IMG/VR virus record: IMGVR_UViG_2645727821_000011 | Length of the DNA: 50,870 nucleotides | Reading direction: 5' to 3' (one strand) | DNA from: a virus | Taxonomy: Duplodnaviria > Heunggongvirae > Uroviricota > Caudoviricetes | Translations under genes and position numbers: made by a program | In this document: in pieces, positions 38,301 to 40,745 of the stretch | Layout: each line of letters begins with the position of its first letter | Numbering within the stretch: position 1 is the stretch's first letter | Notes under the pieces: generated by a model | Database searches by the model: none | Told to the model about the DNA's origin: nothing | The model's input: the letters and a program-made list of their open reading frames with translations, nothing else

Positions 38301-38384
38301 TTTGCTACGACGGCGGAACTATAAGCCTGAACGATTAAAAGGTCAATATGATGCGAAAAGATAGCATTCGCGACTTAAAAATAC

Positions 38385-38401
38385 AAATCTATTAGAGCAT
38401 T
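38385..38401 (-). promoter_or_regulatory. C1 operator-like site AATGCTCTAATAGATTT upstream of c4-icd-ant
   Basis: 15/17 consensus match. Confidence 0.5.
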
Positions 38402-38497
38402 ATCTGATTGGTAAATACACAACTGGATCTAATAACCTCTTTTTTTTAAAGGCGAAAATATGTACCCTAAATGAGTTATAAGGCAGGTGAGGTTATA

Positions 38498-38989
38498 ATG
38501 AGAAAACTATTACTACCGTTATTATTTATGGCTGGGACTGTTAATGCAGCATCAAGCGTAAAGGAGATTTGTACCGATTATACGAAATACCTTGGGCACG
38601 TTTACGGCTTTGCTGTCAGTCAAGACGAATCCATGCGCAAGAAGTTACTGTCAGATATGAAACGCCTTAAACTTTCTGAAGCGATGGTGCAGCAAGAACT
38701 GTATAAAGTCGTAACCAACGAAAATGCTAAATATCAATATTCTCGCCTATTAAATCCCGACGCAAACGAGATCAATCGAAGCACTTTCGATTATATGGTA
38801 AAGGCATGCGAAACCGCTCCTGATTTTGCTATCCCTAGCTGGGGTGTGCTGGTGGCGAGCAATGCCGTTAATAAAGAAGATGTTGGAAGAAATGGCATTG
38901 ACTCAATAAGAAATGCCCCAGGAATGCGCCATCAAAACGTACAGGGTACGCTTGAAGAACGAGCCAGGGGGCCGGGTGTAGCCCCATAA
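38498..38989 (+). CDS. secreted protein (163 aa with signal peptide) whose C-terminal ~28 aa copy a motif found twice in Sit; sim-like superinfection-exclusion candidate
   Basis: ATG after GGTGAGG; MRKLLLPLLFMAGTVNA signal; C-terminus GIDSIRNAPGMRHQNVQGTLEERARG. Confidence 0.6.
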   Translation: MRKLLLPLLFMAGTVNAASSVKEICTDYTKYLGHVYGFAVSQDESMRKKLLSDMKRLKLSEAMVQQELYKVVTNENAKYQYSRLLNPDANEINRSTFDYMVKACETAPDFAIPSWGVLVASNAVNKEDVGRNGIDSIRNAPGMRHQNVQGTLEERARGPGVAP

Positions 38990-39077
38990 TTTAATAAATA
39001 ATATTAAATTCTCTGGGCATAGTGGATCTAACAATATGGACTATGCCTATAATATCTAAAAACAAAAGGATAAAAAT

Positions 39078-39584
39078 ATGAAATTGTATAAGTCATTGTA
39101 TAGCTTTTTATTAATGTCCTCTTTTCTGCCATTATCAGCAATGGCAGGTTCTACCGTTTGGACGGTAGGAGGTGAGCAAGGGTGGAGAGAAATCGCTGCA
39201 ACCAATGACGATGGTTACACAATTAACTTTTCTTGTGATGCTGGAGCAAGGGAAGGTTCAGAAGATCATATCGCTGGAAGAAATTTGTATGTAAGCGGAG
39301 GAAAAGAGAATGCCGATTTTTCTACACGCGACACAATATCACGTAAAGCAGATGTAATTACTTTAATTGTTGGCCCGGATAGTTTTAATATTGGCACGCA
39401 AAACACTGCTCCTAATCGTAGGGAATGGTATTCATTTTGGAAGGCAGTGTCATCTACAAATGAAAAAAACATAGATGTATATATCGGTTCGAGTCGAATC
39501 ACATCATTCACTCTGGATGGTATTTCCAGTATTTATACAGAAGCTAAAAATGACGGGTGTTTAAAACAAAATGACGGTGAATAA
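39078..39584 (+). CDS. secreted protein (168 aa, signal peptide)
   Basis: MKLYKSLYSFLLMSSFLPLSAMA signal; AT-rich codon usage. Confidence 0.6.
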   Translation: MKLYKSLYSFLLMSSFLPLSAMAGSTVWTVGGEQGWREIAATNDDGYTINFSCDAGAREGSEDHIAGRNLYVSGGKENADFSTRDTISRKADVITLIVGPDSFNIGTQNTAPNRREWYSFWKAVSSTNEKNIDVYIGSSRITSFTLDGISSIYTEAKNDGCLKQNDGE

Positions 39585-40644
39585 AGTGAAGGATATTAAA
39601 CACATTTCGCTTAACTCTAATAATAAAGCTGAAGGCACTGCCTTTTATGATTATTTAAATGAAATTAAAGGAGTGAGGCATAAAAAGATAAGTGGTTTAT
39701 TAAATTCAGAATATATTTACAAGAGTTTAGTTAAACAGTTTGGAACAGTTAAAAAACAAGAATTAATTAATGATTGTTTTCGAAAAGAACTTGAGTCTTT
39801 ACCAAAAGTTACGAGAATTGCACACCAGTTTCGTGAACAAATGGTATTTTTACAGAAACAGTATCAGGCGGCTTTTCCCAGTGATGCAAATGAGCATATT
39901 CAAATAATTAAAAATCAAGCTGAAATGGCTATGCCGTTACGAAAACACTCAGAAGCCATTAATAAGATAGCTGGCTTAAATAATATGGAGGAGGTATTTA
40001 AAGAATTACACTCTAATATAAATTACAAAATTAAGATAAGCAAAGATATTAAAGAAATAATAAAGCAGTATAATAAAACAAGAAGTGTATTATTAGAGCA
40101 AGTAGTAGAGCTTGGGCTTGTTACTATCGCGCAGGCTTATGCTAATGATTCTATAAAATCAGCGCATACCGAAAGTGAGCATCAAAACAAAGGATTTAAT
40201 AAATCTAGTTCGACGTTTTTTGATTCATTTAAGGCGCTTCCTTCTCCTATTCAGATCTTCCTTCTGTGGATTTTTTATCAAGTGGTGCTTGGCGCTATAA
40301 CTGATTATGCAAAAGAAAAGACATTATCGCAAATTTACAAGATGGAATCATATCTTCTATCTCTAAATGAGGATAAGCCAATATCTAAGCAAAAGCTAAC
40401 ACAAGAAAATAAAGATATTCAGTGGGAGGATCTTAATAATTTTAGAGCTATAACAGGTGATAACGTAAGGTTGCATGTCGGCCCTTCTTTAAATAGTGAA
40501 GTGATTGAATGCATTGGCAAAAACACAATTGTTGCTATTTTAGATAAGAAAGATCGCCAATGGCTTTACGTGCAGGTTAAATCAGGGGATGAGTTTATTA
40601 CTGGTTGGATTACACGAACATACACAAAGCCTCTTAAGGCTTGA
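39571..40644 (+). CDS. bitopic membrane protein: cytoplasmic N-domain, one TM helix (IFLLWIFYQVVLGAI), C-terminal SH3b-like domain
   Basis: ORF; C-terminal GDNVRLHVGPS...WLYVQVKSGDEFITGWI. Confidence 0.55.
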   Translation: MTVNKVKDIKHISLNSNNKAEGTAFYDYLNEIKGVRHKKISGLLNSEYIYKSLVKQFGTVKKQELINDCFRKELESLPKVTRIAHQFREQMVFLQKQYQAAFPSDANEHIQIIKNQAEMAMPLRKHSEAINKIAGLNNMEEVFKELHSNINYKIKISKDIKEIIKQYNKTRSVLLEQVVELGLVTIAQAYANDSIKSAHTESEHQNKGFNKSSSTFFDSFKALPSPIQIFLLWIFYQVVLGAITDYAKEKTLSQIYKMESYLLSLNEDKPISKQKLTQENKDIQWEDLNNFRAITGDNVRLHVGPSLNSEVIECIGKNTIVAILDKKDRQWLYVQVKSGDEFITGWITRTYTKPLKA

Positions 40645-40745
40645 ATTTTATCTCCGCATCTTCGGATTGGGTGTTGATGACGATGTGCTACTTGAAGCAC
40701 TTGAGTTGTTTTAACGTAGTATCTGAAATGTGTAGACTGACCGGT

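What the first reader, a model, noticed from the sequence alone, without database searches (positions are those of the whole stretch)
38380..40650. AT-rich three-gene envelope cassette at the superimmunity (sim) position
Roughly 33% GC (individual 60-nt lines 17-40%) against about 47-50% in the flanks, so it looks acquired separately from the P1 backbone. It encodes two signal-peptide proteins and a bitopic membrane protein with a periplasmic SH3b-like domain, and sits between the immI operator and the sit operon. All three products act in the envelope, which fits a superinfection-exclusion or injection-blocking module. From memory it does not obviously match the sizes reported for P1 sim products, so it may be a variant or novel cassette.
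Basis: partly seen in the sequence, partly recalled or inferred. Interest (0 to 1): 0.8.

Follow-up and report, generated by a model that had tools for sequence, protein, structure and literature searches.

The report
Variant envelope cassette at P1 sim locus
A P1-like phage-plasmid carries, where phage P1 has its superinfection-exclusion genes simB and simC, a different and uncharacterised trio of envelope proteins, and one of them copies a conserved motif of the phage's own DNA-injection (tape-measure) protein, which suggests a testable way that entry of rival phages could be blocked.

Summary
Window 38380-40650 is the most AT-rich stretch of the 50.9-kb window: 35.9% GC against 47.6% overall (not 33%; only ORF3 is 32.7%). 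It holds three co-oriented genes between the C1 operator of the immI operon and the late promoter LPsit.

Only the first 258 nt match P1. P1's simB-simC segment is replaced by window 38638-40745.

- ORF1 is the long form of P1's truncated 52-aa SimA.
- ORF2 belongs to the small YfjT family (PF27224).
- ORF3 is a probable single-span inner-membrane protein. Its N-terminal domain is hypervariable and its C-terminal bacterial SH3 domain is nearly invariant.
- None is homologous to SimB or SimC, and none matches a known defence model.

The cassette is not rare: 64 PLSDB plasmids carry ORF3, 177 a YfjT-like gene and 141 SimC. The sim locus is already described as a low-GC hypervariable region, and P1's own simBC segment is 33% GC.

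New lead: the ORF1 C-terminus carries a roughly 30-40-aa motif homologous to a conserved segment of Sit, the tape-measure/injection transglycosylase. This suggests exclusion by mimicry.

Function is untested. I call it a new variant of a known kind, of moderate interest.

The parts
38118..38203 (-). C4 antisense RNA of the immI operon (context; marks the left neighbour)
   Evidence: Rfam RF01695, 69.6 bits against a gathering score of 45, E 9.9e-13. The a1b1 target RF03163 lies at 38272-38324.
38385..38401 (-). C1 repressor operator (equivalent of P1 Oc4/Op51) between the divergent c4 and cassette promoters
   Evidence: AATGCTCTAATAGATTT, 2 mismatches to the C1 operator consensus. The window holds 9 such sites against 0.22 expected. 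It aligns with the operator annotated in P1 at L001 5006-5022.
38408..38435 (+). Putative sigma-70 promoter of the cassette (TTGGTA-16 nt-TAATAA), at the place where P1 is annotated with the predicted PsimA
   Evidence: Read directly from the sequence. P1 annotates a predicted PsimA at L001 5028-5054, equal to window 38407-38433. The region is almost identical in window, P1 and Ro157c2YLVW. The consensus scan did not flag it. Inferred only.
38498..38989 (+). ORF1: SimA-family periplasmic protein, 163 aa (172 aa if started at ATG 38471). Signal peptide cleaved after VNA; two invariant Cys.
   Evidence: phrog_3933, E 8.6e-114. P1 SimA (52 aa) matches only profile positions 1-41 of 213. 97.5% identical over 161 aa to the 215-aa gp35 of phage Ro157c2YLVW. 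Family alignment A5. The Shine-Dalgarno sequence GGTGAGG precedes ATG 38498. NCBI annotates the same start in near-identical plasmids.
38897..38986 (+). Sit-like motif at the C-terminal end of ORF1 (IDSIRNAPGMRHQNVQGTLEERARGPGVAP)
   Evidence: BLASTP of the full-length homologue against window Sit: 23/47 identical, E 6e-9. tblastn of ORF1 against the six-frame window: E 2e-6, the only significant hit of any cassette protein outside the cassette. Reciprocal PHROG hits at E 1.2e-7 and 9.3e-5. Conserved in a subset of SimA-family proteins.
38638..40745 (.). Segment that replaces P1 simB-simC (2108 bp here, 1274 bp in P1). The left junction is inside ORF1; the right junction is 3 nt before LPsit. 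A second junction at about 38977 separates this type from the Ro157c2YLVW type.
   Evidence: blastn: window 35001-38637 equals P1 locus 1617-5258 (96.6%), and 40746-44000 equals 6533-9787 (97.7%). Alignments A3 and A4. The Ro157 match ends at query base 598.
39078..39584 (+). ORF2: YfjT-family (PF27224) periplasmic protein, 168 aa. Signal peptide cleaved after AMA. Invariant W28, G35, C53, W117, C161.
   Evidence: phrog_3429, E 3.6e-71. PF27224 is precomputed for 93%-identical relatives and named YfjT. 29% identity (E 2e-24) to Ro157 gp34 and 26% (E 2e-4) to E. coli K-12 YfjT. Alignment A7. AlphaFold2 model: pLDDT 63.6, pTM 0.61.
39586..40644 (+). ORF3: probable bitopic inner-membrane protein, 352 aa from GTG 39586 (357 aa from ATG 39571). 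The start lies 1 nt after the ORF2 stop (or overlaps ORF2 by 14 nt), so translation is probably coupled.
   Evidence: phrog_7086, E 1.4e-225. 42 relatives, all on roughly 90-100-kb phage-plasmid-like contigs of Enterobacteriaceae. Start-region sequence. NCBI start in L002.
39571..40215 (+). ORF3 N-terminal domain (residues 1-215): all-helical, low-confidence, hypervariable and of variable length; presumed cytoplasmic
   Evidence: Mean pairwise identity 33% and length 202-318 aa across 29 relatives. DNA identity to a sister cassette falls to 0.55-0.8 here while ORF1, ORF2 and the 3' end stay at 0.9-1.0. pLDDT below 50. A Citrobacter homologue has 39-bp tandem repeats.
40246..40302 (+). ORF3 hydrophobic segment (residues 226-244), predicted transmembrane helix
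   Evidence: KD19 1.75. In all 29 relatives the value is 1.60-2.39 at a fixed distance from the C-terminus.
40441..40641 (+). ORF3 C-terminal bacterial SH3 domain (residues 291-357), nearly invariant; presumed periplasmic
   Evidence: PF08239, 27.7 bits (cut-off 27); 29 of 29 relatives match. Mean pairwise identity 82%. AlphaFold2 gives a beta-barrel with pLDDT 71-82.
40627..40642 (+). Short GC-poor stem-loop (AAGCCTCTTAAGGCTT) overlapping the ORF3 stop; a weak terminator candidate
   Evidence: Terminator-like scan. P1 has a stronger hairpin after simC.
40749..40767 (+). Late promoter LPsit (-22 box and -10 TAGAAT); start of the conserved backbone and right boundary of the variable locus in all three cassette types
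   Evidence: P1 annotation at L001 6536-6554, mapped through. Window, P1 and Ro157 converge exactly here.
45749..45847 (+). The homologous motif inside sit (gene 42965-46339, 1124 aa), at residues about 929-961, downstream of the SLT transglycosylase domain
   Evidence: Conserved in Sit proteins that are only about 50% identical overall and in P1 Sit. Sit belongs to phrog_2533.

Best explanation
This is an alternative gene cassette at the superimmunity (sim) locus of a P1-like phage-plasmid. The locus is a known recombination hot spot. It lies between the C1-controlled immI promoter region and the late promoter of the tail-tube/sit operon.

Shown:
- Recombination has replaced P1's simB-simC with three other genes: a SimA-family periplasmic protein, a YfjT-family periplasmic protein and an SH3-domain membrane protein.
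- P1's 52-aa SimA is the truncated 5' remnant of ORF1's family.
- ORF1 ends in a motif homologous to a conserved segment of Sit, the phage's tape-measure/injection transglycosylase.

Inferred:
- The genes are transcribed from the promoter region shared with P1 simA and made in the lysogen.
- ORF1 and ORF2 are exported and disulfide-bonded in the periplasm.
- ORF3 sits in the inner membrane with its invariant SH3 domain in the periplasm, probably on peptidoglycan, and its variable helical domain in the cytoplasm.

Proposed mechanism (inferred): superinfection exclusion at the periplasmic stage of DNA delivery. When a related phage contracts its tail, the C-terminal part of Sit enters the periplasm. 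The resident SimA-family protein carries the same motif. It either competes for the partner that the motif must engage (a host or phage component) or co-assembles with incoming Sit and poisons the conduit. The YfjT-family protein is its conserved partner. The SH3 membrane protein may anchor or extend the block at the inner membrane and cell wall.
For: Position and mosaic junctions:
-.

The locus is tied to exclusion in P1:
- simC is annotated as superimmunity and the sim genes are dispensable for lytic growth (PMC10695390).

Predicted envelope location of all three products:
-.

Sit-like motif:
- BLASTP E 6e-9.
- Reciprocal profile hits, E 1.2e-7 and 9.3e-5.
- It is the only significant match of any cassette protein elsewhere in the window.
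- It is conserved in Sit proteins about 50% identical overall and in divergent SimA-family members.
- Nucleotide identity in the motif is only 58/99, so selection on the protein keeps it, not recent duplication.
114 lie in Sit-like or SimA-like ORFs; the 20 cut by contig ends that were inspected carry the same motif strings.

The genes travel together:
- SimA-like + YfjT-like pairs occupy this locus in Escherichia, Salmonella and Klebsiella elements.
- In the 18 P1-like loci that hold DNA upstream of ORF3, a YfjT-like gene precedes it.
- A distant element (L004) combines SimA-like, SimB-like, YfjT-like and SH3-membrane genes next to its icd/antirepressor operon.

Precedent:
- Prophage exclusion proteins that target tape-measure proteins (TP-J34 Ltp, HK97 gp15), as summarised in PMC10883804.
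Against: - There is no functional evidence for any of the three proteins or their families. YfjT is an uncharacterised y-gene.
- In P1 the Sim phenotype is attributed to simC, which is absent here. P1's simA lacks the motif.
- Not all SimA-family members carry the full motif. Some keep only GMRHQ, followed by a Cys-rich tail. Motif variants in SimA and Sit of the same element do not strictly co-vary.
- The function of the motif in Sit is unknown.
- There are no hits to PADLOC defence models.
- ORF3 topology rests on hydropathy alone, and its flank charges are neutral.
- Promoter activity and expression in the lysogen are not shown.
Confidence: 0.45

Rival explanations
1. Lysogenic-conversion envelope module unrelated to phage entry. 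The three proteins would change the host envelope for the benefit of the lysogen (cell-wall homeostasis, stress tolerance, adhesion or colonisation). The Sit-like motif would be a reused peptidoglycan- or envelope-binding element.
For: - YfjT homologues also sit in the cryptic prophage CP4-57, next to a lipoprotein and a tiny membrane protein, with no link to injection genes.
- ORF3 homologues occur without YfjT or SimA in non-P1 contexts (L006, L010, L032, L033).
- No defence-model hits.
Against: - The locus is constantly linked to the immunity region and to the sit operon across divergent elements.
- The motif is shared specifically with the injection protein.
- The fold matches are too weak to carry a function.
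Confidence: 0.2
2. Broad anti-phage defence or abortive infection centred on ORF3. The invariant periplasmic SH3 domain would sense cell-wall damage made by incoming phage lysins. The variable cytoplasmic domain would transmit or execute a response. ORF1 and ORF2 would be accessory.
For: - Conservation along ORF3 is strongly asymmetric: SH3 82% against N-terminal domain 33% mean identity.
- The N-terminal 300 codons have been exchanged between otherwise 93-100% identical cassettes. This pattern is expected under diversifying selection or frequent allele exchange.
- Membrane-anchored defences that act at genome injection exist (PMC13190303, listed).
Against: - The N-terminal domain has no recognisable enzymatic or effector domain.
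- It is partly built of short tandem repeats, which fits relaxed constraint or a scaffold as well.
- There is no PADLOC hit.
- ORF3 is absent from many SimA+YfjT loci, so it is not the core of the locus.
Confidence: 0.15
3. A function in the phage's own lytic cycle. The cassette would help its own virion assembly, injection or lysis. For example, a periplasmic Sit-like factor might prime the wall, or an SH3 membrane protein might modulate lysis timing.
For: - The cassette is adjacent to and co-oriented with the pmgC-tub-pmgB-sit late operon.
- A motif is shared with Sit.
- SH3 domains are common in phage lysins (phrog_1794 amidase hit over the SH3 part).
Against: - The cassette lies upstream of the late promoter LPsit, which is exactly where all cassette types converge.
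- It is transcribed from the immI-side promoter region.
- The locus is freely replaceable by non-homologous genes.
- simABC are non-essential for P1 lytic growth.
- Exported proteins cannot join cytoplasmic tail assembly.
Confidence: 0.1
4. Decaying cargo. The genes would be remnants of past recombination with no current function. ORF1 here is C-terminally truncated relative to the 215-aa form, as P1 simA is more severely.
For: - ORF1 lacks the last 52 residues of the Ro157c2YLVW homologue.
- Truncated YfjT genes (92 aa) and frameshifted SimA variants exist in relatives.
Against: - All three reading frames are intact, with signal peptides, invariant cysteines and coupled starts.
- The 163-aa ORF1 form recurs: it stands for 153 member sequences, and 12 of 35 SimA-type motif hits in IMG/VR carry its tail.
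- The truncation falls just after the conserved motif.
- ORF3's SH3 domain is nearly invariant across genera.
Confidence: 0.05

Closest known systems
Phage P1 superimmunity locus simA-simB-simC (SimC = processed periplasmic exclusion protein)
   Same: - Same locus: between operator Oc4 and LPsit, divergent from c4-icd-ant.
- Same regulatory DNA and the same first 41 residues of the first gene.
- Same low GC (33% in P1).
- The products are exported envelope proteins.
- Dispensable accessory region.
   Different: - ORF2 and ORF3 have no detectable similarity to SimB or SimC.
- ORF1 is the long form, of which P1 SimA is a 52-aa stump without the Sit-like motif.
- An exclusion phenotype has been reported only for the P1 genes.
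E. coli K-12 YfjT (cryptic prophage CP4-57), Pfam PF27224
   Same: - ORF2 is a member of this family: same size, signal peptide, conserved W...G...C...W...C pattern, prophage-borne.
   Different: - Only 26% identical.
- Different neighbours: ypjK and yfjS in K-12, SimA-family and SH3 genes here.
- The family has no known function, so membership explains nothing yet.
Prophage exclusion proteins that block DNA injection through the tape-measure protein (HK97 gp15; Streptococcus phage TP-J34 Ltp)
   Same: - Prophage-expressed envelope proteins, encoded as accessory (moron-like) genes.
- They act after adsorption.
- The tape measure is the genetic target. This is the same step proposed here.
   Different: - No sequence or fold relationship.
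- Those proteins are a small membrane protein and a lipoprotein that bind or obstruct.
- Here the link to the tape measure is a shared motif (possible mimicry), which has not been described for them.
- P1 has a contractile tail.
Phage T4 Imm (inner membrane) plus Sp/spackle (periplasmic inhibitor of the tail lysozyme gp5)
   Same: - Combination of a membrane protein and a periplasmic protein that together stop DNA entry at the cell-wall/inner-membrane stage.
- The target is a tail-borne muralytic protein. Sit carries an SLT domain.
   Different: - No homology.
- T4 is lytic, and those genes act early in infection rather than from a prophage.
- No evidence that any protein here inhibits the Sit transglycosylase.
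- From my own knowledge of the T4 literature, not tested here.
Bitopic cell-wall-binding proteins of E. coli with cytoplasmic N-domain, one transmembrane helix and a C-terminal peptidoglycan-binding domain (DamX/FtsN type); TIGR04211 SH3-and-anchor proteins (YgiM)
   Same: - Same overall architecture as proposed for ORF3: cytoplasmic domain, one helix, periplasmic wall-binding domain.
   Different: - Those use SPOR domains, or have the opposite order (SH3 then anchor).
- The TIGR04211 score is far below its cut-off (11 against 65 bits).
- This is an analogy of layout only.

Membership tests
P1 Sim (superimmunity) system | Located between the C1 operator Oc4 of immI and the late promoter LPsit, transcribed divergently from c4-icd-ant | tested here: met
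P1 Sim (superimmunity) system | Encodes a SimC homologue, the protein to which the Sim phenotype is assigned | tested here: not met
   No BLASTP similarity of ORF1-3 to SimC. Different PHROGs. hhalign of the YfjT profile against SimC gives probability 0.8%.
P1 Sim (superimmunity) system | Encodes a SimB homologue | tested here: not met
   No similarity. A SimB homologue does co-occur with YfjT-like and SH3 genes in the distant locus L004.
P1 Sim (superimmunity) system | Encodes SimA | tested here: met
   92.7% identity over the 41 residues that P1 SimA shares with ORF1. Both fall in phrog_3933; P1 SimA covers profile positions 1-41 of 213.
P1 Sim (superimmunity) system | Confers exclusion of superinfecting P1 after adsorption | not testable with these tools
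   Needs plating, transduction and DNA-entry assays.
YfjT family (Pfam PF27224) | Significant sequence match to the family; signal peptide; conserved Trp/Gly/Cys pattern | tested here: met
   PF27224 is precomputed for relatives 87-99% identical to ORF2 and named YfjT. The local Pfam copy lacks this model. BLASTP to K-12 YfjT gives E 2e-4 and to other members down to 2e-24. Invariant W28, G35, C53, W117, C161.
Bacterial SH3 domain (Pfam SH3_3, PF08239) | Score at or above the gathering cut-off; beta-barrel fold | tested here: met
   27.7 bits against a cut-off of 27 for the window protein. 29 of 29 relatives match, best E 1.3e-9. The AlphaFold2 model shows 7 strands with pLDDT 71-82.
Bitopic inner-membrane protein, N-in / C-out | Single transmembrane helix; orientation | tested here: inconclusive
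   One conserved hydrophobic segment, KD19 1.60-2.39, in all 29 relatives. Flank charges are neutral. Orientation is inferred only from the 225-residue N-terminal domain having no signal peptide.
PTP-like phytase (Pfam PF14566), weak hit of ORF1 | Catalytic P-loop Cys-X5-Arg | tested here: not met
   The hit is exactly at the cut-off (27.0 against 27 bits) and covers profile positions 46-132 of 158 only. The only candidate Cys is in CETAPDF, with no Arg at +6 (sequence). Treated as not meaningful.
Known anti-phage defence systems (PADLOC-DB v2) | Match to any defence protein model | tested here: not met
   0 families at E up to 1 for ORF1-3, and likewise for P1 SimB and SimC.

The most novel reading that the evidence does not exclude
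The SimA-family protein is a periplasmic molecular mimic of a conserved C-terminal segment of the phage's own tape-measure/injection protein Sit. It would exclude superinfecting P1-like phages by decoying or poisoning the step that this segment performs. The sim locus as a whole (SimA-like, YfjT-like, SimB, SimC and SH3-membrane genes in shifting combinations) would then be a modular toolkit aimed at Sit-dependent DNA delivery. The hypervariable ORF3 domain would mark an ongoing arms race.
Probability: 0.3. Interest if true: 0.7.

Novelty: new variant of a known kind. Interest (0 to 1): 0.5.

Why it matters
P1's Sim exclusion has been known since the 1980s, but I found no described mechanism for it. 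P1-like phage-plasmids are now recognised as widespread carriers of resistance genes in Enterobacteriaceae.

If the cassettes at this locus determine which P1-like elements can enter a cell that already holds one, they shape the spread and incompatibility of these elements. The motif shared by SimA-family proteins and Sit gives a concrete, cheap experiment that could reveal both the target of exclusion and a functional site in the P1 injection machinery. It would also assign a first function to the YfjT family, which includes an E. coli K-12 gene of unknown function.

If no exclusion is found, this is simply one more uncharacterised accessory cassette in a known hot spot.

Tried and rejected
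- **Homology to SimB/SimC:** pairwise BLASTP and profile comparison were negative.
- **Defence and family libraries:** PADLOC gave nothing. NCBIfam gave nothing above its cut-offs. Pfam gave only SH3_3 and a borderline PTP-like phytase hit for ORF1, rejected because the catalytic motif is missing.
- **ORF3 structure:** the model is too poor outside the SH3 domain and the helix (pLDDT 45), so I ran no fold search on it.
- **Sequence searches of PDB** with Sit and with profiles of all three families: nothing.
- **Exhaustive HMMER search with ORF2:** only 17 cluster representatives, so the family is small and no annotated distant relatives turned up.
- **GenBank phage records:** no ORF3 homologue in 50,697 records. 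ORF2 homologues occur only in Ro157c2YLVW and Cronobacter phage JK004.
- **Promoter/terminator scan:** no enrichment of promoters; only weak terminator-like hairpins.
- **Co-variation of SimA and Sit motif variants within the same element:** not consistent.
- **K-12 YfjT tblastn hit at window 21967-22137 (E 5e-4):** it lies antisense inside another gene, so I dismissed it as chance.
- **Rfam:** a 'sok' hit in the ORF1-ORF2 spacer is far below threshold (21 against 59 bits) and was dismissed.
- **Literature:** no paper in the held library characterises this cassette, YfjT or a Sit-SimA relationship. The Lobocka 2004 P1 genome paper was not held.

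
Full report

Yes. Window 38380-40650 has 35.9% GC, against 47.6% for the whole window and 47-49% in the 2.3-kb flanks. It is the lowest-GC 2271-bp stretch of the 50.9 kb, about 4.3 standard deviations below the mean. GC falls along the cassette: ORF1 43.7%, ORF2 38.5%, ORF3 32.7%. Individual 60-nt lines range from 17 to 58%.

Three + strand ORFs fill the region: 38498-38989 (or from 38471), 39078-39584, and 39586-40644 (or from ATG 39571).

To the left, on the minus strand, lie kilA-, ant- and icd-like genes. 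Also there are the C4 antisense RNA (Rfam 69.6 bits) with its a1b1 target, and a C1-operator match at 38385-38401. To the right lie pmgC, tub, pmgB and sit. The window is therefore a P1-like phage-plasmid, and the region occupies the sim position.

**2. Relation to P1.**

blastn against P1 (NC_005856) gives 96.6% identity up to window 38637 and 97.7% from 40746 onward, with nothing in between. So 2108 bp here replace the 1274 bp of P1 that hold simB and simC.

The left junction lies inside ORF1, at the place where P1 simA ends and simB starts. The P1 simB start codon aligns with Met46 of ORF1. The right junction is 3 nt before the late promoter LPsit. A third cassette type, from phage vB_EcoM-Ro157c2YLVW, converges on the backbone at the same point.

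P1's 52-aa SimA matches only positions 1-41 of the 213-position profile of phrog_3933, to which ORF1 belongs. P1 simA therefore looks like the stump left when simBC replaced the rest.

ORF1 here (163 aa) is 97.5% identical over 161 aa to the 215-aa Ro157 protein and then diverges. There is thus a second junction near 38977.

P1's simBC segment is itself 33.2% GC. AT-richness is a property of whatever sits at this locus. The literature says the same: PMC9603915 lists simABC among eight hypervariable, low-GC regions of P1-like phage-plasmids, and PMC6906374 calls sim a recent low-GC acquisition.

**3. The three proteins.**

*ORF1.* It has a classical signal peptide (…GTVNA|AS) and two invariant cysteines. 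A conserved domain of about 115 residues is followed by variable tails. Sources name relatives 'simA domain protein'. A Pfam hit to PTP-like phytase sits exactly at the cut-off, covers only part of the model and lacks the catalytic Cys-X5-Arg. I discount it.

*ORF2.*
- It has a signal peptide (…SAMA|GS) and two invariant cysteines.
- It belongs to the YfjT family: PF27224 on close relatives, and 26% identity to E. coli K-12 YfjT of prophage CP4-57.
- The family is very small. An exhaustive HMMER search of 1.84 billion representatives found 17 at E ≤ 0.001. It has no known function.

*ORF3.*
- It has no signal peptide, an all-helical N-terminal region of about 225 residues modelled at pLDDT below 50, and one hydrophobic segment (KD19 1.75).
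- After a linker of about 45 residues comes a C-terminal SH3_3 domain (27.7 bits against a cut-off of 27; beta-barrel at pLDDT 71-82).
- In all 29 aligned relatives the hydrophobic segment scores 1.60-2.39 and sits 128-133 residues from the C-terminus. All 29 match SH3_3.
- The N-in/C-out orientation is inferred only from the absence of a signal peptide. Flank charges are neutral.
- ORF3 starts 1 nt after the ORF2 stop (GTG with a GGTGA Shine-Dalgarno sequence) or overlaps ORF2 by 14 nt.

None of the three proteins, nor P1 SimB or SimC, matches any PADLOC defence model. ORF2 and ORF3 show no similarity to SimB or SimC.

**4. How common is the cassette, and how does it vary?**

| Gene searched by tblastn in PLSDB | Plasmids with a hit |
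|---|---|
| YfjT-like gene | 177 (35 above 80% identity to ORF2, 142 below 60%) |
| ORF3 homologue | 64 |
| SimC | 141 |

- At the DNA level, 34 plasmids cover at least 80% of the region. The best are 99.2% identical E. coli and E. fergusonii IncY plasmids.
- No GenBank phage record holds an ORF3 homologue.
- In the 18 P1-like loci that hold DNA upstream of ORF3 (17 IMG/VR, 1 genome contig), the order is the same: icd on one side; then, reading away from it, a SimA-like gene in 11 of them, a YfjT-like gene, ORF3, pmgC and tub.
- More divergent Salmonella and Klebsiella elements, whose Sit is only about 50% identical, have SimA-like + YfjT-like without ORF3. Ro157c2YLVW does too. The pair is therefore the widespread and probably older state.
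- A distant element (L004/L005) has, next to its icd/antirepressor operon, an ORF3 homologue plus three convergent genes: a YfjT-like gene, a SimB homologue (40% identity, E 1e-26), and a protein sharing the Cys-rich tail of some SimA-family members (hhalign 87%, E 3.7e-6). These envelope genes thus form one pool that recombines at immI-adjacent loci.
- ORF3 homologues also occur alone in other contexts.

Within ORF3, conservation is strongly asymmetric. Mean pairwise identity is 33% in the N-terminal domain (length 202-318 aa), 53% around the helix and 82% in the SH3 domain.

Against a sister cassette with 98% identical ORF1 and 94% identical ORF2, DNA identity drops to 0.55-0.8 between 39580 and about 40480. 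It returns to 1.0 from 40489. This is a mosaic within the mosaic. Some homologues contain 39-bp tandem repeats encoding …KQASFGG… units.

**5. A link to the injection machinery.**

The weak phrog_2533 hit of ORF1 led to Sit. The window's 1124-aa Sit is phrog_2533.

- BLASTP of the full-length SimA-family protein against Sit aligns residues 122-168 with Sit 921-963. Identity is 23/47, E 6e-9, with the core GMRHQNVQGTLEERARGPGT against GMRREVVQGTLEERARGKGT. A weaker second Sit copy lies at 991-1035.
- The profile hits are reciprocal, at E 1.2e-7 and 9.3e-5.
- It is the only significant hit of any cassette-related protein against the six-frame window.
- The segment lies downstream of the SLT domain. 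It is conserved in four Sit proteins that are about 50% identical overall, and in P1 Sit.
- It recurs in a subset of SimA-family proteins down to 51-65% identity. Some extend the match to …AERAYGKGTSTAMGNL.
- Nucleotide identity across the motif is only 58/99, so this is not a recent duplication.
79 lie in long Sit-like ORFs and 35 in short SimA-like ORFs. The other 20 are cut by contig ends; the 15 printed carry the same Sit-type or SimA-type strings.
- In the window, ORF1 ends right after the motif (…RARGPGVAP*).

**6. Most likely mechanism.**

*Shown:*
- the anatomy and the mosaic origin;
- the predicted export signals;
- the family assignments;
- the shared motif.

*Inferred:*
- The cassette is expressed from the promoter region it shares with P1 simA, next to operator Oc4. 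A plausible TTGGTA-16-TAATAA lies at 38408-38435, but no scan support was found.
- Its products act in the envelope of the lysogen.
- They interfere with the Sit-dependent periplasmic step of DNA delivery by superinfecting P1-like phages.

The simplest version is mimicry. The exported SimA-family protein presents the Sit motif. It either titrates the partner that the motif must meet or co-assembles with incoming Sit. The YfjT-family protein is its conserved companion. The SH3 membrane protein adds an anchor at the wall and inner membrane.

This fits the site of the P1 Sim block, which my recollection of the older literature places after adsorption and before DNA reaches the cytoplasm (not read here). 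It also fits precedents of exclusion proteins that target tape-measure proteins (HK97 gp15, TP-J34 Ltp; PMC10883804). I give it about 0.45.

Main weaknesses:
- No functional evidence exists for any of these proteins.
- In P1 the phenotype maps to simC, which is absent here.
- Not all SimA-family proteins keep the full motif.
- The role of the motif in Sit is unknown.

Rivals:
- an envelope lysogenic-conversion module (0.2);
- a broader ORF3-centred defence (0.15);
- a role in the phage's own cycle (0.1). This is disfavoured because the cassette lies upstream of LPsit, is freely replaceable, and simABC are non-essential in P1 (PMC10695390);
- decaying cargo (0.05).

**7. Comparison with known systems and novelty.**

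By position and by its first gene the cassette belongs to the sim locus. It fails the membership test for the Sim system proper, because it has no SimB or SimC homologue.

ORF2 is a member of the uncharacterised YfjT family. ORF3 carries a bona fide bacterial SH3 domain, but as a whole it belongs only to an unnamed PHROG.

It works like, at most, the envelope exclusion systems of other phages (T4 Imm/Sp, HK97 gp15, Ltp), without homology to them.

That this locus is variable and AT-rich is already published. The proteins are already in databases as hypothetical. The specific cassette, its relation to P1 simA and the Sit-like motif have not, as far as the held literature shows, been described.

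Verdict: a real and correctly described feature, and a new variant of a known kind. Interest is moderate (0.5). That score rests mainly on the mimicry lead, which makes the old question of how Sim-locus proteins block P1 entry directly testable.

Noticed in passing
L004 1838-4684 (and L005), Logan contigs: A distant element groups four genes next to its icd/ORF6N-antirepressor operon: an ORF3 homologue, a YfjT-like gene, a P1 SimB homologue (40% identity) and a protein with the Cys-rich tail of SimA-family members. P1-type and window-type sim genes are therefore mixed in one locus.
   Followed up: partly
window 39547-39585: A near-tandem 20-nt duplication (AAAATGACGG(G)TG…) sits at the ORF2 3' end. 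It produces the repeated …NDG…NDGE C-terminus of ORF2 and creates the upstream ATG (39571) that competes with GTG 39586 as the ORF3 start.
   Followed up: no
L006 5368-5507 (Citrobacter homologue of ORF3): A 39-bp tandem repeat (3.6 copies, 82% matches) encodes 13-residue …HKQASFGGxLEGI… units in the N-terminal domain. Other subfamilies show repeats of about 24 residues. Repeat expansion may explain the length variation (202-318 aa).
   Followed up: partly
window 40752-40798: A 17-nt inverted repeat (88% complementary, 13-nt spacer) spans the LPsit -10 region and the pmgC leader. It is conserved in P1 and Ro157c2YLVW and could be a regulatory hairpin of the late transcript.
   Followed up: no
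window 38230-38311 (-): A sub-threshold Rfam match to isrK (43.7 bits against 50), E 2.3e-7, overlaps the c4 leader and a1b1 region. It probably reflects relatedness of isrK to C4-type immunity leaders.
   Followed up: no
window 3175, 5267, 5316, 8939, 18986, 18997, 22519, 36720, 38385: Nine matches (up to 3 mismatches) to the 17-bp C1 operator consensus, against 0.22 expected. One is a perfect site at 18997-19013, overlapping a second site at 18986-19002 in opposite orientation.
   Followed up: no
window 45953-45997 (Sit residues ~997-1011): Sit carries a second, shorter copy of the motif (DKLRNSPGMRKNN). It resembles the N-terminal half of the SimA-family motif (DSIRNSPGMRHQN). This copy is missing from the shorter Salmonella and Klebsiella Sit proteins.
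   Followed up: partly
window 39004-39059: An imperfect 20-nt inverted repeat (core GGCATAGT…ACTATGCC, 16-nt spacer) lies in the ORF1-ORF2 spacer, just downstream of the junction with the Ro157-type cassette. Its function is unknown.
   Followed up: no
L012 7305-7553: One ORF3-bearing IMG/VR element has an extra YfjT-like fragment downstream of ORF3 and about 1.5 kb more DNA before pmgC. This is a more complex version of the locus.
   Followed up: no
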